DNA of 49,001 nt, taken from positions 1-49,001 of the forward strand of contig JBKPRI010000269.1 of the NCBI GenBank assembly GCA_046734515.1, in the 5' to 3' direction. The notes below the pieces were generated by a model, which saw only the letters and a list, made by a program, of their open reading frames with translations, was not told where the DNA came from and did no database searches. Each line of letters begins with the position of its first letter. The stretch's first letter is position 1. The DNA is from Candidatus Methylomirabilota bacterium (GTDB lineage Bacteria > Methylomirabilota > Methylomirabilia > Rokubacteriales > CSP1-6). The translations under genes and the position numbers were made by a program. Shown in pieces: positions 3,350 through 48,466 of the stretch.

Positions 3350-4024
3350 ATGTACAGCTCAGCGATGCTTCCCGTGCTCGACAGCGCGATGCCCGTTCGA
3401 CGCGACACCACCGCCGCGCGCGTCGACCCCGACCGTGAGCTTCTTGCCGCGCTCCAGCGGCAAGATCCGGCGGCGGCCGAGCTCCTGGTCGCCCGGTACG
3501 CCGACCGGGCCTATCGCCTGGCCGTCGGGATCACGCGCAACCCGCGGGATGCCGAGGAAGCCGTGAACGACGCGTTCTGGAGCGTCGTTCGCAGGATCGA
3601 GACCTTCAGGGGCGACTCTGCGCTGGCGTCATGGATCTACCGCATCGTCGCCAACGCGGCCTACCTGAAGATTCGTCGGCAGGCGCGCCGGGGCGATGAG
3701 ATCCCGCTGGACGACGTTTTGCCGGCCTTCGACGAGGACGGCCGCCATGTCGGCCCGCTGCACGACTGGTCGAGCAGCGTCGACGACCCGGCCGTGCAGA
3801 TGCGGCTGCGCGAGGCGCTGCAGACGTCGATCGACGAGCTGCCGCCGGACTATCGTGCGGTCTTCGTCCTCCACGACGTGGAGGGCATGCTCCTGAGCGA
3901 GGTCGCGAGCTCGCTCGGCATCACGGTGGCGGCCGCCAAGGCCCGCTCGCACCGCGCAAGGCTCCTTCTCCGCAAGCGTCTCTCGGCGTTCATGGAAGAC
4001 GCCGCGCTGGCGCTCACGGCGTGA
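3350..4024 (+). CDS. ECF-type RNA polymerase sigma-70 family factor
   Basis: Region 2 is AEEAVNDAFWSVVRRIETFRGDSALASWIYRIVANAAYLKIRRQ. Region 4 is ELPPDYRAVFVLHDVEGMLLSEVASSLGITVAAAKARSHRARLLLRKRL. AGGAGG at 3337-3342 lies 7 nt before the ATG at 3350. Confidence 0.85.
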   Translation: MYSSAMLPVLDSAMPVRRDTTAARVDPDRELLAALQRQDPAAAELLVARYADRAYRLAVGITRNPRDAEEAVNDAFWSVVRRIETFRGDSALASWIYRIVANAAYLKIRRQARRGDEIPLDDVLPAFDEDGRHVGPLHDWSSSVDDPAVQMRLREALQTSIDELPPDYRAVFVLHDVEGMLLSEVASSLGITVAAAKARSHRARLLLRKRLSAFMEDAALALTA

Positions 4025-6842
4025 GGAGCGCCTTGGCGGCGATGAGATCCGGCGTCCCGAATCCCTCGGTGAATCGGCGGTACACCGGCGCCAGCGCTCG
4101 TCGAGCTGCGCCGGTCTGGCCCCGTCGCCGCTGGAGTCGGGCCAGGCTCATCGCGGCTCGAAGCTCCCACGTGAGCGCGCCCTGGCGCCGTGCCACGTCG
4201 GCGGCCTCGAGGAAGAAGCCTTCGGCGTCCTCCGCTGCGGTCGGCGCGCCGGTCAGCACGAGCAGCTCGCCCTTCTTGCGGAGGAGCTCCGCGTGGCACC
4301 ACCCCTCTTCGGTCCGCTCCACGCGCGCGAGTGCATCGTCGATGACCGTCACGGCCTCGCTCACCTGCCCCCGGGCGCCCAGGCCCTCCGCCAGCTCGGC
4401 CAGGAGCAGCGTTCGGTTCAGATAGAACGCGCCCTCGGGAAGTCCCCCGAGCGTCGAGCGCAGCAGCCGGCAGCCGGCTTCGCCCTCCCCGCGCTTGACG
4501 AGCAGCAGGCCCTCCAGGGAGTGTGCCCACAGACTCCAGGTGCTCAGCCCGCGTGTCGTGGCCAGCTCGCCGATGCGCTGCACGTAACGTTCGGCGGTCG
4601 CGAGATCGCCGGCATAGATCGCGATCGGACACGCGGCATGACCGAGCGTGTAGAGCAGTGACAGGTCGTGGCCTTCCGCATCCGCGTAGTCGACCATCTC
4701 GCGCGCGACGCCCATCGCCTGCTCGGCGAATCCCTGCAGCCAGCGAATGCGCGCGTACAAGCAGTGGATCACGACGCGCTGATCCCACTGGTAGCGGATG
4801 ATGTGCAGGCGGCGGGCCGCCGTGAAATCGGCGTCCAGCAACGGCTCGAAGCGCTGCGCGGCACCGTGCTGGTCCCCGAGCATGTGCAAGACCGTGCCGA
4901 CGAATCGCTCGCCGAGAAGCGCGTCGGTGGGGTCCGCGGTCCGGGCGGCGCCGGCGCGCAGGCTCTCGCCGAGCGCCAGGGCGCTGCGATAGTCGCCCAT
5001 GGTGAGGCGATAGAGATACAAGCCGAACAGCGCGCGCAGACGGTACTCGATGTCGTCCAGGCCCTCGGCGAGCTCGAGGGCCTTCGTCAGCGCCGCGATC
5101 ATGGCCGGGCTGCCGATGTCCAGCGTATGGATGGCGGTCGTGCCCAGTGCGAGATACAGTCGCACGTCGCGGGCCGCGTCCGCGGGCACGTCGCGCTCGA
5201 GCCGCTGAATGGCGTGCTCGACGCGCGCGCGGCATTCGCCCACCAGGGCCAGGCGCGTCCACATCGGCACCGCCGCCGCGGTCAGCGCCACGCCCACCGC
5301 GGCGTCGCCGGTCGCCGAGAACGCCCAGTCCAGCGCCACCCGGACGTTGTCGATGTGCTGGCCGTAGACGCGAAGCCAGTCCGCCGGCGGGCTCGCGGCC
5401 GAGGCGACCTCGTCACCCGGACACCCGGCGATGTAGTACTCCGCGTGACGCCGGGCGAAGCGGTCGAACTCCCCCGTGCCGACCAGCTTCTCCAGCGCGT
5501 ACGCCCGCATCGTCTCCTGGAGACGGTACTGGGTCAGGCCGTGGAAGTCGGCGGAGACCAGCGATTTCGAGACGAGGTCGGCCAGCGTGTCGACGACATC
5601 CGCCGGCGAGAGGCCCAGCCCCGAGGCGACGTCGGTCGCGGCGTCGATGGTGAACGCACCGGCGAACACCGCGAGGCGGCGCAAGACGATCCGTTCCTGC
5701 TCGGACAGCAGCTCGTAGCTCCAGTCGAGCGTCGCGCGCAGCGTTTGCTGCCGCGGCAGCGCCGCTCGGTTGCCGCTGGTGAGCAGCGTGAACCGGTCGT
5801 CCAGGCGGGCGGCAATGCCGGCGGCGCCGAGCGAGGGCACGCGGGCCGCGGCGAGCTCGATGGCGAGGGGCATGCCGTCCAGCCGGCGACAGATCGCCGC
5901 GACGACGCCGGGATCCGCGACGAACGCCGGCTCGGCCGCCAGCGCGCGGGTGATGAAGAGCCGCACGGCGTCGTGGCGAAGGACCTCGTCGACCTTTGCG
6001 TGCTCGGGGGGCATGGCGAGCGGCGGCACCCGGTACACGTGCTCACCGTCGACGCGGAGCGGCTCGCGGCTCGTCGTCAGCAGTACCACCGAGGGGCTCG
6101 AGGACAGCATCCCCTGCGCGACGCGCGCCGCGGCCTCGACGACGTGCTCGCAGTTGTCGAGCACCAGGAGGACGCGTCGCGCGCCGATGGCGGCGCCGAT
6201 CCGCTCGGGCGACACCGCGTCCGCGACCAGCGGGAGGTTCAGCGTCGCGGCCACCGTGCGCGCGACCCCATCGCCCGCGGTCAGCGGCGCGAGGTCCGCC
6301 AGCACCACGCCCTCGGCAAACGCCCGCACGAGCCGGCGCGCGACCTCCAGACCGAGACGCGTCTTGCCGATCCCGCCGGTTCCCGTCAGCGTGACGAGCC
6401 GATGCGTCGTCAGCAGGCTCATGACCTCGTGGATCTCGGCCTCGCGCCCGATCAGCTCGGAGACCGGCACCGGGAGCGTCGCCGCGGAGGGCCGTGCGGC
6501 GGCCGGGGCCCCCGCCGCGGGAACACGCACGTCCCCGGTGAACTGGTAACCGCGGCGCGCCACGGTGCGGATGAGATCGCGGTCGGCCCCGAGAATCTTG
6601 CGGAGTGTCGAGATCTGGATCTCGAGGTTGTTCTCCTCGACCACCCGATCCGGCCAGACGCGGCGCAGCAGCTCGTCCTTGCTCACGACCAGCCCGCGCG
6701 CGTCGACGAGGATCGACAAGGTGTCGAACGCCCGCCCCCCGAGCTCCACGGGCTGGCCGTCGGCGAGCAACTGCCGCGCGCGACGATCCAGCCGGAAGCG
6801 GCCGAACTCGATGCTCGAAGGCTGCGCGGCCTCGTCCGTCAT
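4014..6842 (-). CDS. one-component STAND regulator, paralog 2 (wHTH + NB-ARC-like P-loop NTPase + TPR-like)
   Basis: 942-aa ORF with the same motif order as paralog 1: [90 protein letters not shown]. It starts 22 nt downstream of the paralog 3 stop, so co-transcription is likely. Confidence 0.85.
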   Translation of the reverse strand: MTDEAAQPSSIEFGRFRLDRRARQLLADGQPVELGGRAFDTLSILVDARGLVVSKDELLRRVWPDRVVEENNLEIQISTLRKILGADRDLIRTVARRGYQFTGDVRVPAAGAPAAARPSAATLPVPVSELIGREAEIHEVMSLLTTHRLVTLTGTGGIGKTRLGLEVARRLVRAFAEGVVLADLAPLTAGDGVARTVAATLNLPLVADAVSPERIGAAIGARRVLLVLDNCEHVVEAAARVAQGMLSSSPSVVLLTTSREPLRVDGEHVYRVPPLAMPPEHAKVDEVLRHDAVRLFITRALAAEPAFVADPGVVAAICRRLDGMPLAIELAAARVPSLGAAGIAARLDDRFTLLTSGNRAALPRQQTLRATLDWSYELLSEQERIVLRRLAVFAGAFTIDAATDVASGLGLSPADVVDTLADLVSKSLVSADFHGLTQYRLQETMRAYALEKLVGTGEFDRFARRHAEYYIAGCPGDEVASAASPPADWLRVYGQHIDNVRVALDWAFSATGDAAVGVALTAAAVPMWTRLALVGECRARVEHAIQRLERDVPADAARDVRLYLALGTTAIHTLDIGSPAMIAALTKALELAEGLDDIEYRLRALFGLYLYRLTMGDYRSALALGESLRAGAARTADPTDALLGERFVGTVLHMLGDQHGAAQRFEPLLDADFTAARRLHIIRYQWDQRVVIHCLYARIRWLQGFAEQAMGVAREMVDYADAEGHDLSLLYTLGHAACPIAIYAGDLATAERYVQRIGELATTRGLSTWSLWAHSLEGLLLVKRGEGEAGCRLLRSTLGGLPEGAFYLNRTLLLAELAEGLGARGQVSEAVTVIDDALARVERTEEGWCHAELLRKKGELLVLTGAPTAAEDAEGFFLEAADVARRQGALTWELRAAMSLARLQRRRGQTGAARRALAPVYRRFTEGFGTPDLIAAKALLTP

Positions 6843-6864: not shown

Positions 6865-9684
6865 TCAGCCCAGCGCTTTCAGCAGCGCCCGAGCCGACAC
6901 CAGATCCGCCGTCTCGAAGCCTTCGGTGAACCTGCGCAGGACGGGCGCGAGGATCGCCCGCGCCCTGATCCGTCGCTCACGCCGCCACAGACGCGCGAGA
7001 CTCATCGCCGCACGGAGCTCCCACGCGAGAACGCCGTGTCTGTGTGCGTGGTCGATGGCCTGCTCGAACTGCGCTTCCGCCTCCTTCGATGCGCCCTCTC
7101 GCGCGAGTAGCTCGCCCCTCACGCGGAGGAGCTCCGGCCAGGACCACTGCTCCTCCGTCACCTCGCAGCGTGCGAAGGCCTCCGCGATCAGCCGCTGAGC
7201 GTCGGCGGTGCGGCCGGCCGCGCCGAGACCATCGGCGAGCGCCGCCAGAAAGCCGGTGTAGTGAAAGAAGTACCGGCCCTCGCCGAGCTGTTCGAAGGCG
7301 GGCCGGACGAGCCGGCCGTAGCCGTCGGCGTCGCCACGCTTCACCAGCAACACCCCCTGCAGACAGCGACCGACGGCGTGCCATGCCACACTTCCGTGGC
7401 GGCTCGTGACATCGAGCAGCCGCGTCACCGAGCCGTCCAGCGCGCCGAGGTCGCCGGTGTACAGGGCAATCGCCGAGGCCGCTTCGGCGAGCGCGAAACA
7501 CAGCGAATGATGATGACCGGTCGCCTCGCCTTCGGCCACGGCCTGATGGGCCAGCTCGACCGCCCGCGCAGATGCCCCCTGCAGCCACACGACATGCGTC
7601 AGCGTGTTGAGCGCCAGCACCCGCTGGTCGAAGAGGAATCGCATCGTTTGCGAGCGGTAGGTCACCGGGCGCGGCTGGCGCTCCAGCATGCGCTCGATGT
7701 GGCGCCGCGCGGACTCCTGATCGCCGATGTAATGCAGGGACGCTCCGATCAGGCGGTCGGCGATCGCCTGATCGTCGGCATTCGGCCGCCGCGCCGCAAT
7801 GCCGGCGAAGCGCTGCGCGAGGGCCAGCCCCATCCGTCCTGAGCCGGTCTGGTTCCGGCACGCATACTGTCCCCAGATCGCGCGCAAGCGGTACTCGTCG
7901 TCATCGAGGCCTTCTGCCATGTCGAGGAGCGTCGTCCAGAGCGTGTCGATCTCGGGACGCGGCCCGCGCACATGAAGGGTCGACATGGCGAGCGCGGCCT
8001 GGAGCTTCAGCGCAAAGCGGCCCTCCACCGGAGCGCCGGTCTCGGCTGCGCGCTGGACCCGCTCAAAGCTCTCGTTCAGCAGCGACAGCTCCAGCCAGAG
8101 TGGCACCGCTGCGATCGTCAGCGCAGTGCCGAGCGTTGCGTCGCCGCCCGGCGCGAACGCCCAATCGAGCGCGGCGCGCACGTCGTCGAGCGTGTGGGCG
8201 TACGCGGCCAGCCACTCCGCCGTCGGCCGCGTGGGCCAGTCAGCCTCGGCCGTCTCCATCATGCCGCGGAAGTACGACGCGTGCCGGGCCAGCGCGACCT
8301 GGAGCTCCCCCGCCTCCCCGAGACGCTCGCGCGCGTAGGCGCGCGTGGTCTCCAGCAGGCGATAGCGCGGGGCACCGCCGGCGACGTGCGCGACGATGAG
8401 CGAGCGGCTCACCAGGCTCGCCACGCCGTCCGCCGCGGCCGCCTCGGGAAGCTCAGCGCTCGCGACGATCGCGCACGCGGCCTCCACCGAGAAGCTTCCC
8501 GCGAAGACGCCGAGCCGCCGCAGGACGATCCGCTCGGGCTCGGACAGGAGCTCGTGGCTCCAGTCGAGCGTGGCGCGCAGGGTCTGGTGGCGGGCGAGCG
8601 CCGTGCGCTTGCCGGTGGTGAGCAGCCGGAACCGGTCGTCGAGCCGCGCGGAGATGCCCTCGACACCCAGGGCCGCCACGCGAGCGGCAGCCAGCTCGAT
8701 GGCGAGCGGGATACCGTCGAGGCGGCGGCAGATGGCGGCGACCGTCGCGGCGTGCCGGCGATCCGACATCGCCACCGCTTCCACGGCGGCGGCGCGCGTG
8801 CTGAACAGCTGGACGGCGCCGTGGCGCAGCACGTCGTCGGCGTCGAGGTTGTCCTCGGCGGGGACCTCCAGCGATGGGACGCGATAGATGTGCTCTCCCG
8901 CGGTCCCCAGCGGCTCGCGGCTGGTCGCGAGCACGACCGTGCGCGGGCCCGTGCTGAGCAGCGCCGCGGCCATGTGCGCGGCCGCGTCGATCACGTGCTC
9001 GCAGTTGTCCAGCACCAGCAGGAGCTGCCGGTCGGCGACGGCGGCCGCGACGCGCTCGGGCGTCACCGTCGCGCTGCCCAGCGGCAGACCGAGCGCGGCC
9101 GCGACCGTCACGGCTACCAGGCTTCCATCGGTCAGCGGCGCGAGCTCGGCCAGCCAGACGCCGTCGGAAAACCGCTCGAGGATTCGGCGCGCGACTTCGA
9201 GTCCCAGGCGCGTCTTGCCAACTCCGCCTGAGCCCGTGAGGGTGACGAGCCGATGCGCCGTGGCCAGCTCCGTCACCGCCTGCACGGCGGGCGCGCGGCC
9301 GATAAGCTCTGACACTTCCACCGGCAGATTCGTGGACGCCGTGAGGCGGGGCGACGCGCTGGGGTCGCGGATCACCCCCGTGAACTGATACCCACGGCCG
9401 TGGACCGTGCGGATCAGGTGCCGGTCGGCGCCGAGGACCTTCCGCAGGGCCGAGATCTGGATCTCGAGGTTGTTCTCCTCGACGACCCGGTCAGGCCAGA
9501 TTCGACGCAGCAGCTCGTCCTTGCTGAGCACCGCACCGCCTCCGTCGAGCAGGACGAGCAGGGTGTCGAAGGCACGGTCGCCGAGGTCGATCCGGCGGCC
9601 TTCTTCAAAGAATTCACGACGTTGCCGATCGATCCGGAAGCGACCGAACTCGATCACCCCCGGCCGATTCGTCGCCGTCGCCAT
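6865..9684 (-). CDS. one-component STAND regulator, paralog 3 (wHTH + NB-ARC-like P-loop NTPase + TPR-like)
   Basis: 939-aa ORF with [79 protein letters not shown] and [11 protein letters not shown]. Confidence 0.85.
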
Positions 9685-42087: not shown

Positions 42088-43590
42088 TCAGCGGCGGCGC
42101 TTGAGCAGCCAGTCGATCGCGCCACTGCCATCGTCGGCGTCGGCGCCACTCTCGACTCGTGGCGTCCGTTCCGCGGGGACTCGGCGTTCGATCGACGCCG
42201 ACGACTCGCCGGTGGCCGGGAGCTCGGTCGGACGACGGCGATCGGCCCGGGGCGATGATTCGACTGGGGCACGCGGCGCGATCGGCGCCGCTGACTGGAC
42301 GGCGCGCGGGCGACGGTCGATCGTCGACCGAGCACTCGCGGACGGCGCGATCGGCGGCAGAATCATGGGCGGCGGAGCGGCCGGCGATTCGGGCGCGACC
42401 ACCGCAGCTCGTGGTTCCGCGGGTGGCCTGTTCTCGACCGCGCCGGCTTCGGACGGCGCCGTCAGCTCGCGAGGGGCCGAGAGCTGCGCCGCCGCCTCGG
42501 ATGACCGCAGAACCTCCGGCTCGATCGGAACGGCCGTGACCGCCGGCGGCGTTACACCGCGGTAGAGCTGCGCTGCGATGTGATCGAGGCCGGCAATCCA
42601 CACGATGGCGGCCGTGACGCCGGCCATGGCGACGGCCGCGGTCATGCGAAGCGCGATCGGCCGCTGACGGCGGCGCACGCGGCGACGGGCATTCCCCCGC
42701 CCCTTCACCAGGCGAGGGGGATTCTCCGGCGCGGTGACGGCTGCCGCCGCACCCCAGATGTCATTGATCATCACCGTGATGTCCGGATAGCGGCGCTCGG
42801 GCCGTGGCTCGAGTGCCGTCTCGATGATCCGCTGGATGGTCGGTGACAGGGGCGGCGTCACCGCGACAGCGCCCGGAGTCTGCTCCCCTTTGCCGGCCGT
42901 CAGGACGTGCCGGAGCAGCATCCCCAGCGCGTACACGTCGGTGGCCTCAGTCGCTTCGCCGCCTTCGAGCTGTTCCGGCGCGAGATAGGACGACGGGAAC
43001 GGCTCGCGGAAGCGCCGGCCGATCGGGGTGCGGTACGCGGCGGCCAGCTCGGCTCCGACGACGCTGATCCGTTCACCGTCGTTCAGCATGAGCACCGTGT
43101 CCGGGCCCAGCCGGCCGTGAACGAGGCCGTTGTGATGAAGCGCCTCGAGCGCCTCGCCGACCCGGATGGCCACGCGCAGCCCCGTGGGCACGGCGAGGGC
43201 GCCGCCGCCGTCGATGACTTCACCCAGCGTGGCGCCCTCGACCCGCTCGAGCGCGACGAAGAGCTGGCCGGTCTCGATCGCGCCACACTCGTAGACGCGC
43301 TGCACCCCGCGGAGCACCTGGGCCGGTGTCGCCAGCGCGAGGGATCGCGCGCGTACCGCCGCCACGAACTTCGTGTCACGCGCGAATTCGTCTCGCAGCA
43401 CTTTCAGCGTGATCGGCCGATGGTGGCGGATGTCCTCGGCGCTGTAGACGACCACGTCGGCGTCGACCGACGTGATGGCCTTCACCCGGTATCGCGCGTT
43501 AATGAGCGAGCCGATGAGACTCGAATTGAACTCCGGCACGGCCGCCGGCTGAGGCGCGGCGCCGACCGTCACGTCAGTCGTCACCGGCAA
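42088..43590 (-). CDS. membrane-anchored Hanks-type kinase-like protein, predicted pseudokinase
   Basis: The kinase fold is recognisable: ITLKVL (VAIK Lys), YLAPEQ (APE), DVYALG, RPERRYP. The catalytic motifs are lost. The Gly-rich loop reads ITSVDADVVVY, HRDLKPxN reads VHGRLGPDTV and DFG reads VVGAEL. One TM follows (IALRMTAAVAMAGVTAAIVWIAGL), then a Pro/Ala/Arg/Ser-rich low-complexity tail. It uses a TTG start. Confidence 0.75.
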   Translation of the reverse strand: MPVTTDVTVGAAPQPAAVPEFNSSLIGSLINARYRVKAITSVDADVVVYSAEDIRHHRPITLKVLRDEFARDTKFVAAVRARSLALATPAQVLRGVQRVYECGAIETGQLFVALERVEGATLGEVIDGGGALAVPTGLRVAIRVGEALEALHHNGLVHGRLGPDTVLMLNDGERISVVGAELAAAYRTPIGRRFREPFPSSYLAPEQLEGGEATEATDVYALGMLLRHVLTAGKGEQTPGAVAVTPPLSPTIQRIIETALEPRPERRYPDITVMINDIWGAAAAVTAPENPPRLVKGRGNARRRVRRRQRPIALRMTAAVAMAGVTAAIVWIAGLDHIAAQLYRGVTPPAVTAVPIEPEVLRSSEAAAQLSAPRELTAPSEAGAVENRPPAEPRAAVVAPESPAAPPPMILPPIAPSASARSTIDRRPRAVQSAAPIAPRAPVESSPRADRRRPTELPATGESSASIERRVPAERTPRVESGADADDGSGAIDWLLKRRR

Positions 43591-43817
43591 TGGTTCACGA
43601 TCGAGGGCACCGCCGCGGGAGTTGAAGGCGATCGAGCGAGAGTCGAAGCCAAGCTCGCGACCGACATTCTGGACGCATCATGAGACCACTCCCGATCCAC
43701 GTCAAGAGCGGAATCACCTAGAAAAAACTCTTGCCGAAACCCCGACGATGTCCTACACCTAGGTCAGCCGGTGAAACATTGCGTATCGATGAGACGCTGA
43801 CGCCGGGAGCTCCTCAG

Positions 43818-45293
43818 ATGCAAAAGCTCGTCGACCTCGCGCGGCGCACGCTCGAGGTCGACCGGAAAGCCGCCGACGCCGCCCGCCGCGACAGTCCCAA
43901 GACGGCAAACGCCTCGCCCGACGCCACCGAATCGGAGATCTGCGCGCACTTCATCGCGCTCGCCCGCGAGCGACGCGAGGGCTGCGAGGGGCGTCTGGCC
44001 CGGCTGGAGCTCGATCGCAAGGCGACCGCGGCGAAGATCGACGTGAGGCAGACCCGCGATGCTTTCGCGCGCCTGCTGACGCCCGTCGAGCCGGGCCTCG
44101 AGAAGCTCCGATCGGACCACACCGCGGTGCTCTATCAGGCCAAGGAGAACGAGGCGCGCGCCCTGAAGCACCTGCGATGGTTCCAGAACAAGCACGGCCT
44201 TCACCACCGGGCCGCGTCATACCCGGGCTCGCCGCTGTACCACTTCGCCATCGTGGCCGGGCTGGCGCTGGTCGAGTGGATGTCGCTCGCGGCGTTCTAC
44301 GCGGAGGGCAGCGACTTCGGTCTCCTCGGCGGCGTGCTGATCGCGATGACGCTCTCCGTCGTCAACATCAGTCTCGCCATCCTCGCCGGTGGGCTCCTGC
44401 GGTACGTGAATCACCGGAGCGGTCGCCGGAAAGCGCTCGCCTTGACGGGGGTCGCGGTGCTGTACGCCGGTTTTCTCCTCGTGACGCTCGCCGCCGCGCA
44501 CTATCGGGTCGCGACCGGCGACATCGCGCAGTCACAGCCGGAGGTGTCCGGACCGGCCGGCGCGGCGCTGCCGCCTCAGGTCGCGGCGGACTTCGATCAG
44601 TGGCGGGCCGCGCGGCTGGCCTGGCAGCGCTTCTCCCGCAATCCGGTCGGATTCGAGGACGTCTTTTCCTGGATCCTGGTCGTGCTGGCCGGCGTCTTTG
44701 GCATCTTCGCCTCGTACAAGGGCTACCGGATCGACGACCCGTATCCGGGCTACGGCGAGCTCGATCGAGAGCTGAACGCACGGCGGGCCTACTACGAAGG
44801 CCGCAAGGCCGAGTACTGCCGCCTCATCGACCAGGTCTTCGACCGCATCGTCGACGAGCAGGCGCGGCTGTTCGCGGACGTGAAGGCGAACATCGAATAC
44901 TATCAACAGCTCGTCGCCAAGAGCGACGACGAGCGCCGGGCCTTCGCGCACGAGACGGCCGAGCTCCAGGACGCGTGCAACCTTCTGCTGAAGCGCTATC
45001 GGGAGGCCAACGCGCGCGCACGCACCTCGCCGACGCCCTACTACTTCAAGGACACCTTCGCCTTCGATGGCGATCTCTTGCGGCCGCCCGAGGCGATCTC
45101 GGCGTACGACGCGCGGTTGCTGGCGTCCTACGAGAGCGCGATGAAGGACTTCAGCGACATCGCCCGGCAGAACGACGCGACCGTCCAGAACCTCCGGACC
45201 GGCGAGATCCGCCGCCGCGACTACTACTTCAACAAGCTCGAGCGCGAGGTTCGCGAACGGCTCGTCCGGGAAGCGTGGGAGATCAAGAGCTGA
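43818..45293 (+). CDS. cassette gene A: 4-TM membrane protein flanked by long helical/coiled-coil cytoplasmic regions
   Basis: ATG at 43818 with GGGAG 8 nt upstream; the track ORF starts at a TTG at 43731. There are four hydrophobic segments: LYHFAIVAGLALVEWMSLAAFY, FGLLGGVLIAMTLSVVNISLAILAGGLL, ALALTGVAVLYAGFLLVTLAAAHY and VFSWILVVLAGVFGIFASY. The N- and C-terminal regions are charged and heptad-like. I recognise no family. Confidence 0.7.
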   Translation: MQKLVDLARRTLEVDRKAADAARRDSPKTANASPDATESEICAHFIALARERREGCEGRLARLELDRKATAAKIDVRQTRDAFARLLTPVEPGLEKLRSDHTAVLYQAKENEARALKHLRWFQNKHGLHHRAASYPGSPLYHFAIVAGLALVEWMSLAAFYAEGSDFGLLGGVLIAMTLSVVNISLAILAGGLLRYVNHRSGRRKALALTGVAVLYAGFLLVTLAAAHYRVATGDIAQSQPEVSGPAGAALPPQVAADFDQWRAARLAWQRFSRNPVGFEDVFSWILVVLAGVFGIFASYKGYRIDDPYPGYGELDRELNARRAYYEGRKAEYCRLIDQVFDRIVDEQARLFADVKANIEYYQQLVAKSDDERRAFAHETAELQDACNLLLKRYREANARARTSPTPYYFKDTFAFDGDLLRPPEAISAYDARLLASYESAMKDFSDIARQNDATVQNLRTGEIRRRDYYFNKLEREVRERLVREAWEIKS

Positions 45294-45297
45294 CCCT

Positions 45298-46116
45298 GTG
45301 CCGCTGAGCAGCCTGGATCGGCGGGGCATCTTCATCCTGAGCGGTGTCGGCGCCTTCGCGGCAGTGCTGCTGGCGACCGTCGTCGGCGTCACGTGGAGCC
45401 GGCCCATCATCGGCCCCGACAACTGCGTGTACCGGGACCGGCGCTTTCTCAGCCGGGCCCCGACCGACCAGACGGTGGTGCTGGTCGACCAGTCGGAGGC
45501 GCTGACCGAGACGCATCGGCGATTCGCACTGACCTTCCTCAAGGACTATGTCGCCGACGACACACGATTCGCCGTGCGCTCACGGATCGCCCTGTTCACC
45601 TTCAGCAAGGCGACCTTCGAGCTCCGGAGCGGCCCGCGCCTGCGCCCGAGCTCGGATCTGTGCCGGCCGCCGTCGCGGGGGAACGACCTCTACGAGAACA
45701 ACCGGAAGATCACCAAGGACTTCCACCAGCGCTTCCTGGTCCCGGTCACCGCCACGCTCGAGCAGAGCCTCACCACCGAGGTCGGCGAGCAATCACCGAT
45801 CCTCGAGACGCTGCAGCTCATCTCGCGCTCGCAGGAGATCGACGACGGGGGCCGCAAGACCTTGATCATCGTCTCCGACATGCTGCAGCACACCGCCGCG
45901 TTCAATCACTACGGGCCCGCCCGCGGCTACGATGACTTCGTGCGATCCGGCTTCGCCGCCGACGTGAAGGCGGACTTCCGGGACTGGAACGTCATCGTGA
46001 TCTATCTGCGCCGGTACCAGGATCGCCAGCTGCAGCAGGCCGCGCATATCGACTTCTGGCAGCGCTATTTCCACGAGGCCGGCGCGAAGATCATCCGCTG
46101 GGCCGGAGTCGACTGA
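45298..46116 (+). CDS. cassette gene B: N-terminally membrane-anchored alpha/beta domain protein, vWA-like
   Basis: The GTG start lies 4 nt after the gene A stop. The TM is IFILSGVGAFAAVLLATVVGV. TVVLVDQSEALTE is MIDAS-like (DxSxA), and SPILETLQLIS and TLIIVSDMLQH fit the vWA/Rossmann-like strand-helix pattern. The assignment is tentative. Confidence 0.6.
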   Translation: MPLSSLDRRGIFILSGVGAFAAVLLATVVGVTWSRPIIGPDNCVYRDRRFLSRAPTDQTVVLVDQSEALTETHRRFALTFLKDYVADDTRFAVRSRIALFTFSKATFELRSGPRLRPSSDLCRPPSRGNDLYENNRKITKDFHQRFLVPVTATLEQSLTTEVGEQSPILETLQLISRSQEIDDGGRKTLIIVSDMLQHTAAFNHYGPARGYDDFVRSGFAADVKADFRDWNVIVIYLRRYQDRQLQQAAHIDFWQRYFHEAGAKIIRWAGVD

Positions 46117-46121
46117 GCCAC

Positions 46122-47810
46122 GTGACCCGCCTGGTGGCGAGTCTGCCGTCCACGTTCCTCGGCTTTATCGCTCTCGGGGTCGGCGTGATCCTGACGTTCA
46201 GCGCATGGTCCGCCGGGGGGCCGGGCGGTTCGCGACACTGGATCATGACCGCGCTGGTCGTGGGGCTGATGTTCGTGTACGGACTCCTCCTCTGGCTCAG
46301 GTCGAGGACGGCGTACGCCGCCGAGACCGATGGCGAGACGTTCTATTACCTCGGCTTCATCTACACGCTCGCCACCCTGGTCGCCACGTTCGCGCCGCTG
46401 CTCAACGCGCCGGAGCGAGTCGAGAGCCGCCACGTGCTGGGCCTGTTCGGGGTGGGCCTCATCACGACGTTCGTCGGCCTGGCCGGGCGGATTGTCTTCG
46501 CGCAGACCGTCGCGGGGCCGGCCCGGCCAGAGGACGACGCGCGGCGCCTCGGCGACGCCTACACGGACGCGGCGCGCGCCATCGAGCGGAGCACCGTTCG
46601 CATCGTGCACGCCCAGCAGCGCGCCGAGGGACATCTGAACGAGTCGTATTCCGGTGCGGTCGAGACGATCCGGAACGTCTCCGATCGCGTGACGCAGCAG
46701 CTCGATGCGCTGAACGCGCAGGTCCTGCGGCAGTTCGCGGCGATGATCGAGCGCGTCAGCGCCGACGCCGAATCCGCCTTCGCGGAGGTGCGCACTCGCG
46801 CGGTCCAGCAGATCGACGCGGCGTGCCGGGACGCGGCCAAGACGCACGACACGGCCAGGGAGCAGATCGAGAGCCTGGCGGCCGGAACGGCCGGCGCCGT
46901 CCGGGCCGTCGGCGAGCAGGTCGTCCGGGACGTCGCCCGGATGGCGCGGGAATCGGCGGCGGAGCTCGCCGAGTTCGTGCGCCAGACGAACGGCAGCGTG
47001 AGCACGGCCCTGCAGCAGTTCGAGACACGCGTCGACGCGCTTCGCCTGCCCTCCGGGGACATCGGCGAGAAGCTGACCGCGGTGTTGACCGAGCTCGCGG
47101 AGCGGGCAGAGCGGCTCCGGCGTACGACCGTCGACGTGGACGCCGCCTACGGTGAGCTCGAGGAGACGCTGGCCGGCGCGGTGAACGGCGCGCGAGACGG
47201 CGGCCGGGCCTTCAATGCCCTGGCCGTCTCGGCCGACGCGGCGACGTCAGCGGTGACGTCGGCCAACACGAACGTCGAGCAATTCGCCGCACACCTCAAG
47301 GAGCTCGGCGCCCTCGCTGCCGCGCTGGAACAGCTGCCGCAGGAGGGCGCCGGCATCATCGCAACCCTCGGTGACCTGCGCACGCACCTCGGCGAAGCCA
47401 ACCGCGCGTGGGCAGAGGTGGCCGGCGTGACCGACGACGCCAGCAAGTCGATGGCGCGCGCGGGCGCGGCCCTGACGTCGCTCGAGCACGGCACGCGCGC
47501 GGCGGAGCAGTCCGTGCGCACGTGGAGCGGCGGCCTGACGAACGCGGGCCTCGGACTGCACGCGCTGACCGAGGTGACCGAGCGTGTCGTGAAGCTTGGC
47601 CAGGACGCCGTGACCACCCAGGCCCAGCTCTCCGCGCAGATCTCGGGACCGCTCGTCGAGCAGCTGCGCCTCCACAGCGAGGCGGCCGGCGCGCTCGCGA
47701 GCCGGCTGCAGGAAGACCTGCAGGCGTCCGAGGAAGCCGTGCGCCGGGTCCACCATCACCTCATCGATGCCTCACGCTTCATTCTGAGCAAGGTCGAGTA
47801 TCGGCGGTGA
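46122..47810 (+). CDS. cassette gene C: 4-TM ExbB/MotA/TolQ-like stator-type protein with ~430-aa Ala-rich helical tail
   Basis: The GTG start lies 5 nt after the gene B stop. There are four N-terminal TMs. TM3 FYYLGFIYTLATLVATF and TM4 LGLFGVGLITTFVGLAGRIVF resemble, from memory, the ExbB signatures GLFGTVWGI and EALLATAIGLVAAIP with similar spacing. The remaining ~430 aa is predicted helical, with no catalytic motif visible. Confidence 0.6.
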   Translation: MTRLVASLPSTFLGFIALGVGVILTFSAWSAGGPGGSRHWIMTALVVGLMFVYGLLLWLRSRTAYAAETDGETFYYLGFIYTLATLVATFAPLLNAPERVESRHVLGLFGVGLITTFVGLAGRIVFAQTVAGPARPEDDARRLGDAYTDAARAIERSTVRIVHAQQRAEGHLNESYSGAVETIRNVSDRVTQQLDALNAQVLRQFAAMIERVSADAESAFAEVRTRAVQQIDAACRDAAKTHDTAREQIESLAAGTAGAVRAVGEQVVRDVARMARESAAELAEFVRQTNGSVSTALQQFETRVDALRLPSGDIGEKLTAVLTELAERAERLRRTTVDVDAAYGELEETLAGAVNGARDGGRAFNALAVSADAATSAVTSANTNVEQFAAHLKELGALAAALEQLPQEGAGIIATLGDLRTHLGEANRAWAEVAGVTDDASKSMARAGAALTSLEHGTRAAEQSVRTWSGGLTNAGLGLHALTEVTERVVKLGQDAVTTQAQLSAQISGPLVEQLRLHSEAAGALASRLQEDLQASEEAVRRVHHHLIDASRFILSKVEYRR

Positions 47811-48466
47811 TCCGCCGAGATCGCCTGGCCCGAAACCGCGACGTCGCGCTCACGACCCTGATCGATCTGCTCGTCCAGGTCATCTTCGTGCTGGCGCTGA
47901 TCCTGGTCTCCGCCGACGTGGGCGGCAACGAGTCGCGTGAGCGGGGCTGGGTGACGCCCGAGGCATGGAAGACGCTGATCAGCATCTTCGATGTCGATCC
48001 CCGGACGCTCCGCGAGGTCCCCGCGCAGGTGGCGGCCATCGAGGCCACCTACGGCAGGCTGCAAGACAATCTGAAAGCTTGCGACGCCAGGACCGGCGCC
48101 TGCGAAAGAAACGCCGGACGAGGTCCGGGGAACGCGCCGTGCCGCAATTCGGCGGGAGTCGAGATGGTGGTCGCCGAGGCGACGATCGATCACCACGGGC
48201 GGATCGTCGTGGCGCCCGGGCGCGACGCGGATCAGCTCGAGCAAGACCATCCGCTCGGCGCCGACGCGTTCGGCGTCCCGCTTTCCGCCGAGCGATTCGC
48301 CGCCGTCTTCCGCCGGTGGCGCGAGCACGGGCTGACGCATCAGCCTCCGTGCGCCTTCAAGGCGGACGTGCGCTACGATGCGCGCGCGCCGGCGGGCGAC
48401 TACGAGCCGGCGCGGCGCGCCATCGCCAGCTACTTCACGTTGTCGGCGTCCCCCAAGCGCTTCTGA
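47807..48466 (+). CDS. cassette gene D: ExbD/TolR/MotB-like single-TM protein with conserved TM Asp
   Basis: The GTG at 47807 overlaps the gene C stop (GTGA). A short basic N-terminus (IRRDRLARNR) is followed by DVALTTLIDLLVQVIFVLALILV, which resembles the ExbD/TolR TM (INVTPFIDVMLVLLIIFMV) including the Asp. The C-terminal domain has four Cys and an ExbD-like pattern (EATIDHHGRIVV...FKADVRYD). No OmpA-type peptidoglycan-binding motif is seen. Confidence 0.55.
   Translation: MIRRDRLARNRDVALTTLIDLLVQVIFVLALILVSADVGGNESRERGWVTPEAWKTLISIFDVDPRTLREVPAQVAAIEATYGRLQDNLKACDARTGACERNAGRGPGNAPCRNSAGVEMVVAEATIDHHGRIVVAPGRDADQLEQDHPLGADAFGVPLSAERFAAVFRRWREHGLTHQPPCAFKADVRYDARAPAGDYEPARRAIASYFTLSASPKRF

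What the first reader, a model, noticed from the sequence alone, without database searches (positions are those of the whole stretch)
46122..48466. ExbB/MotA-like protein with very long helical tail paired by GTGA overlap with an ExbD/TolR-like protein
Gene C:
- TM3 contains LGFIYT, comparable to the GLFGT signature of ExbB.
- TM4 contains GLITTFVGL, comparable to ALLATAIGL, about 18 residues downstream. That is the order and spacing seen in the channel-forming helices of ExbB/TolQ/MotA.
- These helices are followed by ~430 aa of Ala/Glu/Arg-rich helix with no enzymatic motif.

Gene D:
- It starts inside the gene C stop codon.
- Its single TM, DVALTTLIDLLVQVIFVLALILV, mirrors the ExbD/TolR helix, including the proton-accepting Asp position.
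- Its extracytoplasmic domain lacks an OmpA-like peptidoglycan anchor and carries four Cys.

This would be a divergent 5:2-type ion-driven motor whose output is a cytoplasmic filament-like tail.
Basis: inference. Interest (0 to 1): 0.75.

Follow-up and report, generated by a model that had tools for sequence, protein, structure and literature searches.

The report
Zorya-like proton motor gene pair
Two overlapping genes encode a very divergent relative of the ZorA/ZorB (MotA/ExbB–MotB/ExbD) ion-driven membrane motor with a roughly 430-residue cytoplasmic helical tail. They form the last two genes of a conserved, so far unannotated four-gene cassette found in many bacterial phyla.

Summary

**Gene C (46122-47810)**
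- It has a compact four-helix membrane domain followed by a 432-aa amphipathic helical tail.
- C itself hits no curated model. Its wider family has 1212 cluster representatives.
- That family links it to MotA_ExbB (Pfam, below threshold, constant register), to TolQ, and best to type II ZorA by HMM, PADLOC models and Foldseek.
- The family-invariant residues G78, T82, T116 and G119 align with ExbB G144, T148, T181 and G184.

**Gene D (47807-48466, GTGA overlap)**
- It has an Arg-rich N-terminus and one TM helix with an invariant Asp20. Distant relatives carry Glu at that position.
- Its four-Cys periplasmic domain gives ExbD and TolR as best structural matches, not OmpA.

**Context**
- C and D are the last two genes of a conserved cassette A-B-C-D.
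- The cassette occurs in Rokubacteria, Alphaproteobacteria (including SAR11), Acidobacteriota and methanotrophs, among others. RefSeq annotates the genes as hypothetical.
- In some lineages the D-like subunit is a clear ZorB homologue with an OmpA domain.
- About 40% of distant loci carry a fused or signal-peptide nuclease.

**Limits and verdict**
- The 5:2 stoichiometry, rotation and biological role are untested.
- Verdict: a new variant of a known kind.

The parts
43731..45293 (+). Gene A. It is 520 aa from the TTG at 43731; an internal ATG at 43818 is a possible true start. It has about 170 aa of N-terminal coiled coil, four predicted TM helices (about aa 176-331) with invariant polar residues, then the motif 'DDPYPGYG' and about 180 aa of C-terminal coiled coil. 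It is the first gene of the cassette.
   Evidence: Homologues lie upstream of C in 74 of 83 sequences (82 loci plus the window), always in the order A-B-C-D. Conserved columns are in alignment A11. No Pfam, PADLOC, NCBIfam or PDB family matches. The topology is my reading of the sequence.
45298..46116 (+). Gene B, 272 aa. It has an N-terminal TM anchor and an alpha/beta-looking domain that is probably periplasmic. Conserved residues include D64 (consensus 'IL.D.TD.L'), C122, P124, 'SPIMES' and 'VSDMLQH'. It is the second gene of the cassette.
   Evidence: Homologues occur in 79 of 83 sequences (82 loci plus the window). Conserved columns are in alignment A10. No family or PDB match was found. 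A vWA-like or Rossmann-like fold is only my impression from the motifs.
46122..46511 (+). Gene C membrane domain, aa 1-130. It is four TM helices with both the N-terminus and the tail in the cytoplasm. Helices 3 and 4 correspond to ExbB/TolQ TM2-TM3 and ZorA2 TM2-TM3.
   Evidence: The AF2 model has pLDDT 90.9 and pTM 0.81. Foldseek gives 8vvi_C, ExbB, TolQ and PomA.
46365..46367 (+). Codon of Thr82 in TM3 (motif YYLGFIYTL). It is family-invariant and aligns with ExbB T148 and ZorA2 T61. It is a predicted proton-path residue.
   Evidence: Invariance is shown.
46467..46469 (+). Codon of Thr116 in TM4 (motif GLITTFVGLAGR). It is family-invariant and aligns with ExbB T181 and ZorA2 S95.
   Evidence: Invariance is shown.
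46512..47810 (+). Gene C cytoplasmic tail, aa 131-562, plus the stop codon. Invariant Pro310, Pro406 and Pro510 split it into four amphipathic helical segments. The tip 'VHHHLIDASRFILSKVEYRR' is very conserved.
   Evidence: Composition and periodicity are. The only hits are to coiled-coil or apolipoprotein-like families and to ZorA-tail models.
47807..48466 (+). Gene D, 219 aa. Its GTG start lies inside the GTGA overlap with the stop of C. It has an Arg-rich cytoplasmic N-terminus, one TM helix (aa 12-35), a helical linker and a periplasmic domain.
   Evidence: See, and the AF2 model.
47864..47866 (+). Codon of Asp20 in the D TM helix. It is the candidate proton-carrying carboxylate and aligns with ExbD Asp25.
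   Evidence: It is invariant in 21 orthologues. It is Glu in 48 of 48 distant partners.
48134..48436 (+). D periplasmic domain, about aa 110-210. It is an ExbD/TolR-like alpha/beta fold with conserved Cys112 and Cys182. There is no OmpA-type peptidoglycan-binding domain.
   Evidence: pLDDT over this region is 88-93. The top Foldseek hits are ExbD (8p9r, 8vgd, 8pek) and TolR 5by4. It is the same domain as in distant partners (hhalign P 5.5e-5).
42088..43590 (-). Membrane-anchored Ser/Thr protein kinase, divergent from gene A. The link is by synteny only.
   Evidence: The same divergent arrangement is seen in 13 Rokubacteria/Methylomirabilota loci and in no distant locus.

Best explanation
**Proposed machine**
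- C and D form the core of a proton-driven (or other ion-driven) inner-membrane motor of the MotAB/ExbBD/ZorAB superfamily. The closest known relative is type II ZorAB.
- By homology, five C subunits would surround two D helices.
- D Asp20 would take up a proton that arrives past C Thr82 and Thr116. Cycles of protonation would then turn the C ring around D.
- D would be held still on the periplasmic side by its ExbD-like, disulfide-bonded domain. That domain probably binds another protein, with the periplasmic domain of B the obvious candidate, rather than peptidoglycan through an OmpA-type domain.
- The five 432-residue C tails would bundle into a long cytoplasmic shaft. It would couple the motor to cytoplasmic partners, plausibly the two coiled-coil arms of membrane protein A.

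**Biological role**
- The four tightly packed genes A-B-C-D act as one machine.
- The most likely role is Zorya-like: sensing or answering envelope perturbation or invading DNA.

**Shown versus inferred**
- Shown: the homology, the topology logic, the conserved residues and the cassette conservation.
- Inferred: the stoichiometry, the rotation, the partners and the role.
For: **Gene C**
- The C family has 1212 representatives at E<=1e-3.
- Y75, G78, T82, T116 and G119 are invariant.
- PF01618 is hit by 41 of 121 members. Every match whose coordinates I inspected used profile positions 51-125 on TM3-TM4.
- ZorA2 PADLOC models match the whole TM domain of some members. They also match TM3-4 plus the start of the tail in relatives, at E 5.6e-5 and 8.8e-6.
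- The family HMM scores annotated E. coli ZorA2 at 16.9 bits (P 1.7e-7), against a shuffle maximum of 3.9 bits. TolQ scores 10.2 bits.
- The high-confidence model matches type II ZorA 8vvi_C with TM-score 0.68 and rmsd 2.5 A.
- ZorA2 has the same build: a TM domain within the first 110 aa or so, then a tail of about 435 aa, 550 aa in all.

**Gene D**
- The best structural matches are ExbD and TolR.
- Asp20 aligns with ExbD Asp25.
- The acidic TM residue is conserved as Asp or Glu.
- In Rhodobacterales relatives the partner is a ZorB homologue: ZorB2 model E 4e-29, and 37.6% identity to E. coli ZorB2.

**Cassette and role**
- The order A-B-C-D is conserved across phyla: A in 74 and B in 79 of 83 sequences (82 loci plus the window).
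- Nucleases are fused to the cassette or lie next to it in about 26 of about 63 distant loci.
Against: **Weak or missing direct evidence**
- The window's own C and D reach no curated threshold. PF01618 gives E 4.6 and no ExbD model matches.
- Foldseek E-values are marginal: 0.03 for D and 0.2-1.7 for C.
- hhalign against thin ExbB/TolQ profiles gives only P of about 0.01-0.04.
- The PDB profile searches found nothing.

**Differences from known motors**
- C has an extra N-terminal TM helix compared with ZorA2 and ExbB.
- C lacks the cytoplasmic domain found between TM helices in MotA, ExbB and type I ZorA.

**Against a Zorya-like role here**
- No ZorC, ZorD, ZorE, ZorF or ZorG is present.
- No nuclease lies within 7 kb in the Rokubacteria loci.
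- In the phylum the operon is strongly conserved and syntenic with a kinase. That pattern looks more housekeeping than defence-island-like.
- Where nucleases are present they are periplasmic, not cytoplasmic as in Zorya.

**Untested**
- Neither stoichiometry nor rotation was tested.
Confidence: 0.75

Rival explanations
1. The cassette is a Ton/Tol-type energiser, not a Zorya-type signalling motor. C-D would be an ExbBD/TolQR paralogue. It would pass force in the periplasm, through D's ExbD-like domain, to a TonB/TolA-like partner (A or B). The work done would be envelope maintenance or uptake, for example of DNA breakdown products where secreted nucleases accompany the cassette. On this view the tail is a scaffold, not the output.
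For: - D's periplasmic domain matches ExbD and TolR best.
- TolQ is the second-best hit of the family HMM, at 10.2 bits.
- The accompanying nucleases carry signal peptides or sit on the periplasmic end of the D-like subunit. This includes a SAR11 genome.
- In Rokubacteria the operon is vertically conserved.
Against: - No TonB or TolA C-terminal domain, and no outer-membrane receptor, is recognisable in the cassette.
- A appears to have four TM helices with both coiled-coil arms on the cytoplasmic side (my reading of the sequence).
- C lacks the ExbB/TolQ cytoplasmic domain.
- C shares its build and its best scores with ZorA2.
- The 432-aa tail and its tip are highly conserved.
Confidence: 0.15
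2. C is a non-motor membrane-anchored helical scaffold or stress protein. It would resemble PspA-associated, Rv2743c-like or apolipoprotein-like membrane-binding helices. D would be an unrelated small bitopic periplasmic protein. The ExbB and ExbD motif similarities would be convergence in glycine- and threonine-rich TM helices.
For: - The tail hits Apolipoprotein, DUF1664, DUF948 and similar families.
- One family member passes the Pfam Rv2743c threshold.
- Direct hits of the window proteins to the motor families are not significant.
Against: - Several independent lines agree in one register: the Pfam hits, the ZorA2 HMM with its shuffle control, Foldseek 8vvi_C, and the invariant Thr and Gly positions.
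- C is always paired with a bitopic protein that carries a buried Asp or Glu.
- In some lineages that partner is an unambiguous ZorB.
Confidence: 0.07

Closest known systems
Type II Zorya ZorA2/ZorB2. Examples: E. coli plasmid pQnrS1_005237 zorA2-zorB2-zorE, and the Sulfuricurvum kujiense ZorAB structure 8VVI.
   Same: - The A subunit has a compact N-terminal TM domain followed directly by a helical tail of about 430 aa (550 versus 562 aa).
- The Gly/Thr motif in the penultimate TM helix and the Thr/Ser-x-x-Gly motif in the last TM helix are shared.
- The B subunit is bitopic, with an acidic residue in the TM helix, and is encoded immediately downstream.
- This is the best HMM, PADLOC and Foldseek relative.
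- In Rhodobacterales members of the cassette the partner is 37.6% identical to ZorB2.
   Different: - C has a fourth TM helix, at the N-terminus.
- The window's D has an ExbD-like Cys-containing domain in place of the OmpA-type peptidoglycan-binding domain.
- There is no ZorE. Two conserved membrane proteins, A and B, precede the pair instead.
- Where nucleases occur in the family, they are exported or periplasmic.
- No Zorya model reaches significance on the window proteins' TM parts.
ExbB-ExbD and TolQ-TolR (Ton and Tol-Pal energisers; Pfam PF01618 and PF02472)
   Same: - The TM hairpin register matches: G78, T82, T116 and G119 align with ExbB G144, T148, T181 and G184.
- D Asp20 aligns with ExbD Asp25.
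- The fold of D's periplasmic domain matches.
- The two genes are adjacent and translationally coupled.
   Different: - Scores are below threshold.
- There is no large cytoplasmic domain between TM1 and TM2.
- The cytoplasmic tail is long.
- There is no TonB, TolA, TolB or Pal partner.
- D has four Cys and a longer helical linker.
Flagellar stator MotA-MotB / PomA-PomB
   Same: - The A subunit has a four-TM topology with both ends in the cytoplasm.
- The B subunit has an acidic TM residue.
- PomA appears among the Foldseek matches.
- OmpA-type B subunits occur in part of the family.
   Different: - There is no cytoplasmic torque-generating loop between TM2 and TM3; here the loop is about 8 residues.
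- There is no plug region.
- The genes are not in a flagellar context.
- MotA scores only 1.5 bits against the family HMM.

Membership tests
MotA/TolQ/ExbB proton channel family (Pfam PF01618) | A profile match above the Pfam gathering score (22.9 bits) | tested here: not met
   - Window C scores 7.4 bits, E 4.6, at residues 69-125 against profile positions 51-106.
- Relatives score below threshold in the same register. P0339 gives 18.5 bits (E 0.0017) and others give E 0.015-0.36.
- 41 of 121 members hit at E<=1, with a best of 1.7e-5.
MotA/TolQ/ExbB proton channel family (Pfam PF01618) | A C-terminal TM hairpin with a conserved Gly-x-x-x-Thr in the first helix and Thr-x-x-Gly in the second, lining the ion path | tested here: met
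   - G78, T82, T116 and G119 are invariant in 137 family members.
- They align with ExbB G144, T148, T181 and G184 and with ZorA2 G57, T61, S95 and G98.
- The functional role of the ExbB residues is taken from my own knowledge of the literature.
MotA/TolQ/ExbB proton channel family (Pfam PF01618) | A 5:2 (or similar) complex with the bitopic partner inside the pentamer | not testable with these tools
   Only monomer prediction was available.
ExbD/TolR (Pfam PF02472) | A profile match to PF02472 | tested here: not met
   - No Pfam, NCBIfam or PADLOC family hits D at E<=1.
- The PDB profile search gives only a weak PilN hit.
ExbD/TolR (Pfam PF02472) | A basic cytoplasmic N-terminus, and a single TM helix with an essential Asp near its cytoplasmic end | tested here: met
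   - The N-terminus 'MIRRDRLARNRD' is followed by a TM helix at residues 12-35 containing Asp20.
- Asp20 is invariant and aligns with ExbD Asp25.
- Distant partners have Glu at this position.
ExbD/TolR (Pfam PF02472) | A periplasmic alpha/beta domain of the ExbD/TolR fold | tested here: inconclusive
   - The top four Foldseek hits are ExbD: probability 0.85-0.99, TM-score 0.66 normalised to the target, rmsd 3.3 A. TolR 5by4 and ExbD 2pfu also appear.
- E-values are only 0.03-1, and the model's overall pLDDT is 70.5, although the domain itself scores 88-93.
Zorya anti-phage system (ZorAB plus ZorC/D, ZorE or ZorF/G) | A ZorA-type subunit: a MotA-like TM domain plus a long C-terminal helical tail | tested here: inconclusive
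   - The architecture is met: 130 aa of TM domain plus a 432-aa tail.
- Window C hits ZorA models only in the tail (E 0.0024).
- Relatives hit ZorA2 models over the TM domain.
- The family HMM scores E. coli ZorA2 at P 1.7e-7. The Rokubacteria-only HMM gives P 0.009.
Zorya anti-phage system (ZorAB plus ZorC/D, ZorE or ZorF/G) | A ZorB subunit with a dimeric OmpA-type peptidoglycan-binding domain | tested here: not met
   - Window D has no OmpA or ZorB hit and an ExbD-like fold.
- The feature is met only in another branch of the family, where ZorB2 gives E 4e-29.
Zorya anti-phage system (ZorAB plus ZorC/D, ZorE or ZorF/G) | Subtype-defining soluble partners (ZorC/ZorD, ZorE, ZorF/ZorG) in the same operon | tested here: not met
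   - A and B hit no PADLOC model.
- No nuclease lies in the window or in the Rokubacteria loci.
Zorya anti-phage system (ZorAB plus ZorC/D, ZorE or ZorF/G) | Protection against phage | not testable with these tools
   This needs an experiment.

The most novel reading that the evidence does not exclude
A-B-C-D would be an undescribed system that is related to Zorya and widely distributed.

- It has at least 1200 clusters at 50% identity.
- It occurs in Rokubacteria, Alphaproteobacteria (including SAR11), Acidobacteriota and methanotrophs.
- A ZorAB-type ion motor would work with two dedicated membrane partners.
- Where an effector is recognisable, it is an exported periplasmic nuclease rather than a cytoplasmic one. 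That would make this a motor-coupled machine acting at the envelope or periplasm.
- In the Rokubacterial branch, an ExbD-like protein-binding domain has replaced the peptidoglycan anchor of the stator subunit.
Probability: 0.45. Interest if true: 0.8.

Novelty: new variant of a known kind. Interest (0 to 1): 0.68.

Why it matters
**A new branch of a small superfamily**
- Only a handful of functional classes of 5:2 ion-driven motors are known: the flagellar stator, Ton, Tol, gliding/T9SS, and Zorya.
- This branch has a minimal membrane domain, a Zorya-length tail and exchangeable periplasmic modules (ExbD-like, OmpA, OmpA plus nuclease).
- It also has two new obligatory membrane partners.
- It gives a natural experiment on how such motors are anchored and what their tails talk to.

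**An annotation gap**
- RefSeq labels the genes as hypothetical, even in cultivable Paracoccus, Rhizobium, Rhodopseudomonas, Methylomonas and Sphingomonas. In those organisms the hypothesis can be tested directly.

Tried and rejected
**Direct scans of the four window proteins**
- Pfam, PADLOC and NCBIfam gave nothing beyond coiled-coil noise (SMC, JetC, ZorA-tail).

**PDB sequence searches**
- Profile searches with the C, D, A and B alignments gave no usable hit.
- A single family member's TM domain run against PDB also found nothing.

**Profile comparisons**
- hhalign of the C family against ExbB/TolQ gave the expected register but only P 0.01-0.04. The ExbB/TolQ homologues I could fetch were nearly all enterobacterial, with Neff about 1.7. 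My first hhalign run used a wrong option and was discarded.
- The D-family HMM against ZorB2 was not significant. The link to ZorB comes from the OmpA-type branch only.

**Pfam rescans**
- Ten members of the 'GDNFYYLGF' subgroup gave no PF01618 hit at E<=0.01.

**Foldseek**
- The C model has no hit below E 1e-3. Generic four-helix bundles (TARP, syntaxin, talin) are mixed in with the motor proteins. Foldseek alone would therefore not have been convincing.

**Other searches**
- No relative was found in phage genomes.
- Literature searches for Zorya-like, type IV Zorya or new 5:2 motor families found no description of this cassette.
- The promoter and terminator scan was uninformative.

**Idea considered and dropped**
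- A as a TonB/TolA analogue. Its four TM helices and two cytoplasmic coiled-coil arms do not fit.
Full report
**1. What is in the window.**

The region is the end of a tightly packed operon on the + strand, in DNA of about 68-70% G+C.

| Gene | Coordinates | Length |
|---|---|---|
| A | 43731-45293 | 520 aa |
| B | 45298-46116 | 272 aa |
| C | 46122-47810 | 562 aa |
| D | 47807-48466 | 219 aa |

- The gaps between genes are 4 nt (A to B) and 5 nt (B to C). C and D share a GTGA overlap.
- In that overlap D's GTG is 47807-47809 and C's TGA is 47808-47810.
- C has about 210 homologue clusters and D about 235. All listed ones are at least 65% identical. They come from soil and sediment metagenomes, and one is named Candidatus Rokuibacteriota.
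- Both are therefore real genes, and the organism is a member of Rokubacteria/Methylomirabilota.

**2. The observation.**

*Gene C:*
- An AlphaFold model of C residues 1-147, built on 40 diverse relatives, is confident (pLDDT 90.9, pTM 0.81). It has four long helices at 8-30, 37-61, 70-94 and 102-130.
- LGFIYT (77-82) lies in helix 3 and GLITTFVGL (112-120) in helix 4.
Thr82 to Thr116 is 34 residues, against 33 for ExbB T148 to T181.
- The rest of C (131-562) is Ala/Arg/Leu/Glu-rich with only three prolines, at 310, 406 and 510. All three are invariant in orthologues.
- This tail has strong amphipathic-helix periodicity. It is about 3.6-3.7 (hendecad-like) for residues 136-290 and about 3.5 (heptad) for residues 312-510. 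Power is 161, against a 99th percentile of 60 in shuffles.
- If the tail were one continuous helix, it would span about 65 nm at 1.5 A per residue. That is my arithmetic, not a measurement.

*Gene D:*
- D starts with MIRRDRLARNRD, followed by one TM helix containing Asp20.
- A helical linker follows, and then a C-terminal domain with Cys92, Cys99, Cys112 and Cys182.
- The basic N-terminus and the cysteines put the C-terminal domain in the periplasm. This is an inference from the positive-inside rule.

**3. Direct database hits fail; relatives supply the link.**

- None of the four proteins reaches any Pfam, NCBIfam or PADLOC threshold.
- C collects only coiled-coil noise (SMC, JetC, ZorA-tail models).
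- PDB profile searches were empty.
- A profile of the C membrane domain was then searched against 1.84 billion cluster representatives. It found 1212 proteins at E<=1e-3.
- These proteins are 250-690 aa long and share D..FYYLGF(I/L)(Y/F)TL and FG(I/L)(A/G)L.TT(I/F)VG(L/I)(A/G)GR.
- In 137 of them Y75, G78, T82, T116 and G119 are invariant.

**4. C is a MotA/ExbB-superfamily protein, closest to type II ZorA.**

- *Pfam.* Of 121 family members, 41 hit PF01618 (MotA_ExbB) at E<=1, with a best E-value of 1.7e-5.
- *Pfam register.* Isolated TM fragments and full-length members match profile positions about 51-125 with their TM3-TM4 in every case I inspected. Examples are P0339 at E 0.0017, others at E 0.015, and window C at E 4.6.
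- *PADLOC on TM domains.* ZorA2 models match the whole compact TM domain of some members, for example residues 8-125 against profile positions 3-118 of 494.
- *PADLOC on relatives.* The same models match TM3-4 plus the start of the tail in relatives from Methylomonas and Ruegeria, at E 5.6e-5 and 8.8e-6.
- *Targeted HMM test.* I fetched an annotated E. coli zorA2-zorB2-zorE locus. The family HMM scores ZorA2 at 16.9 bits (P 1.7e-7 for a single comparison), matching HMM positions 34-125 to ZorA2 residues 16-109.
- *Controls.* 200 shuffles of the ZorA2 TM part reach at most 3.9 bits. TolQ scores 10.2 bits, MotA 1.5 and ExbB 0.2.
- *Narrow HMM.* The Rokubacteria-only HMM gives the same register at P 0.009.
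- *Residue alignment.* hhalign pairs G78, T82, T116 and G119 with ZorA2 G57, T61, S95 and G98. It also pairs them with ExbB G144, T148, T181 and G184.
- In type I ZorA the equivalent Thr147 and Ser184 contact ZorB Asp26 and act as the ion-selectivity filter (PMC11946911).
- *Foldseek.* No hit is significant by E-value. However, ExbB (6tyi, 5sv0), TolQ (9kpz, 9ddn) and PomA (9ijm, 8zyv, 8brd) recur in the top 50.
- The type II ZorAB structure 8vvi_C is the best superposition: probability 0.96, TM-score 0.68, rmsd 2.5 A over 87 columns.
- *Same build.* ZorA2 has its TM domain in the first 110 residues or so, then a tail of about 435 residues (550 aa in all).
- *Differences.* C has one extra N-terminal TM helix. 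It has only an 8-residue loop where MotA, ExbB and type I ZorA carry a cytoplasmic domain.

**5. D is the ExbD/TolR/MotB/ZorB-type partner.**

- The AlphaFold model of D has overall pLDDT 70.5, with the C-terminal domain at 88-93.
- Its four best Foldseek hits are periplasmic domains of E. coli ExbD. For 8p9r_B the probability is 0.99, the TM-score to target 0.66 and the rmsd 3.3 A. TolR 5by4 and ExbD 2pfu follow.
- hhalign aligns 'ALTTLIDLLV' with ExbD 'NVTPFIDVML', so Asp20 pairs with Asp25.
- Asp20 is invariant in 21 orthologues.
- There is no OmpA domain.

**6. The pair belongs to a conserved four-gene cassette.**

- A scan of 185,579 species-representative genomes found 220 relatives of the C membrane domain. 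This is a lower bound, because the scan used only two peptide patterns.
- Seventeen are Rokubacteria/Methylomirabilota orthologues.
- The rest are 26-42% identical. They include Rhodopseudomonas, Bradyrhizobium, Ruegeria, Sphingomonas, Pelagibacter, Methylomonas, Methylobacter, Acidobacteriota, Latescibacterota and Bdellovibrionales, among others.
- In my ORF and HMM analysis of the 82 fetched loci plus the window, a homologue of A lies upstream in 74 and of B in 79. The order is always A-B-C-D'.
- The downstream D' proteins start with 'YRRGLVLGLTMAEIMVLIIF'. The TM carboxylate is Glu in 48 of 48 matched cases.
- After a coiled-coil linker, D' carries one of two modules.
  - The same Cys-containing domain as window D. 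hhalign gives P 5.5e-5 over 106 columns, with both Cys aligned; 25 distant loci have it.
  - An OmpA domain, in 12 of 52 members. That OmpA module is a true ZorB domain: the PADLOC ZorB2 model gives E 4e-29, and it is 37.6% identical to E. coli ZorB2.
- RefSeq annotates the cassette as three hypothetical proteins plus an 'OmpA family protein'. Examples are Paracoccus yeei pYEE1 and Rhizobium johnstonii pRL11.
- A and B match no Pfam, PADLOC or PDB family.
- I found no paper that describes the cassette.

**7. Hints to function.**

- In about 26 of about 63 distant loci a nuclease accompanies the cassette.
  - SNase is fused to the periplasmic end of D' in L062, L034 and L078.
  - A GmrSD_C/HNH-type nuclease is fused in L031, L058 and L077.
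  - Separate SNase or HNH-like genes lie directly beside the cassette. Most begin with an obvious signal peptide.
- Zorya also pairs its motor with nucleases (ZorD, and ZorE as an HNH nickase; PMC11946911, PMC11890865). There the nucleases are cytoplasmic and are recruited through the tail.
- The Rokubacterial loci, including this window, have no nuclease within 7 kb.
- Those loci instead keep a divergent membrane Ser/Thr kinase upstream of A, in 13 loci.
- No relative occurs in phage genomes.

**8. Most likely mechanism.**

Shown:
- homology to the 5:2 motor superfamily;
- conservation of the Thr/Gly and Asp/Glu positions;
- a topology compatible with ExbB/ExbD;
- translational coupling of C and D;
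- an obligatory association with A and B.

Inferred:
- A C5D2 complex in which proton flow through Thr82, Thr116 and Asp20 turns the C ring.
- D is held by its ExbD-like domain. ExbD binds TonB and TolR can bind peptidoglycan, so a protein partner such as B's periplasmic domain is plausible here.
- The bundled tails reach about 60 nm into the cytoplasm, towards the coiled-coil arms of A.
- The very conserved tail tip 'VHHHLIDASRFILSKVEYRR' may be a docking site. In ZorA, truncations that remove the tail tip abolish defence (PMC11946911).

My probabilities:
- About 0.75 that C-D is such a motor.
- About 0.35-0.4 that the biological role is defence-like.

**9. Rivals.**

- A Ton/Tol-like periplasmic force transducer (0.15).
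- A non-motor helical membrane scaffold (0.07).
- Pure chance resemblance is excluded by the shuffle control and by several lines of evidence agreeing in one register.

**10. Verdict.**

- Its interpretation is supported by homology.
- The closest known system is type II ZorAB.
- Membership in Zorya proper fails on the peptidoglycan-binding domain and on the partner proteins.
- I file it as a new variant of a known kind, embedded in a widespread and unannotated cassette.

Noticed in passing
window 403-3228, 4014-6842, 6865-9684 (- strand): Three tandem paralogous ORFs of about 940 aa, 60% identical to each other. Each has an N-terminal OmpR/PhoB-type winged-helix DNA-binding domain, a P-loop ('GGIGKTRL') and a long helical, TPR-like C-terminal part. 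They look like a triplicated STAND/AfsR-like regulator.
   Followed up: partly
window 42088-43590 (- strand): A membrane-anchored Ser/Thr kinase with a Pro/Ala/Arg-rich C-terminal region lies divergent from gene A. The same arrangement occurs in 13 Rokubacteria/Methylomirabilota loci and in no distant locus. Whether it regulates the cassette is unknown.
   Followed up: partly
L062 7978-9798, L034 7643-9151, L078 8181-9701, L031 8047-9555, L058, L077; L050 3825-4475, L047 3609-4094, L066 2168-2647, L040 4050-4625, L056 4954-5544, L051 3658-4671: In distant versions of the cassette, an SNase or GmrSD_C/HNH-type nuclease accompanies the genes. It is either fused to the periplasmic end of the ZorB-like subunit or encoded next to the cassette, in most cases with an N-terminal signal peptide. 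One of these loci is in a Pelagibacter genome.
   Followed up: partly
distant D' proteins, e.g. L050 8299-9252, L020 7757-8821: The TM carboxylate of the stator-like subunit is Glu ('GLTMAEIM') in all 48 distant partners matched. In the Rokubacterial clade it is Asp. Known MotB, ExbD, TolR and ZorB proteins use Asp; that last point is from my own knowledge.
   Followed up: partly
protein P0323 (family member), residues 91-300: It passes the Pfam gathering score of PF25587 'Rv2743c family' (28.9 bits against 27.7). Other members give weak hits to the same family. The M. tuberculosis psp-operon membrane protein family may therefore be related to this ZorA-like family.
   Followed up: no
L001 13293-13924 (downstream of the orthologous operon on a 5.6-Mb contig): A ParE/PhdYeFM toxin-antitoxin pair lies about 1 kb downstream of the D orthologue. 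Copper-resistance genes follow it.
   Followed up: no
database names: Some C orthologues are labelled 'BMFP domain-containing protein YqiC' by JGI, which looks like a coiled-coil artefact. Many Salmonella ExbB records carry the name 'tol-pal system-associated acyl-CoA thioesterase', apparently a propagated misnomer.
   Followed up: no
window 43731-43818: The mechanical ORF of gene A starts at a TTG with an Arg/Pro-rich 29-aa extension. An in-frame ATG ('MQKLVDLARR') at 43818 may be the true start. Orthologue calls vary between 504 and 571 aa.
   Followed up: no
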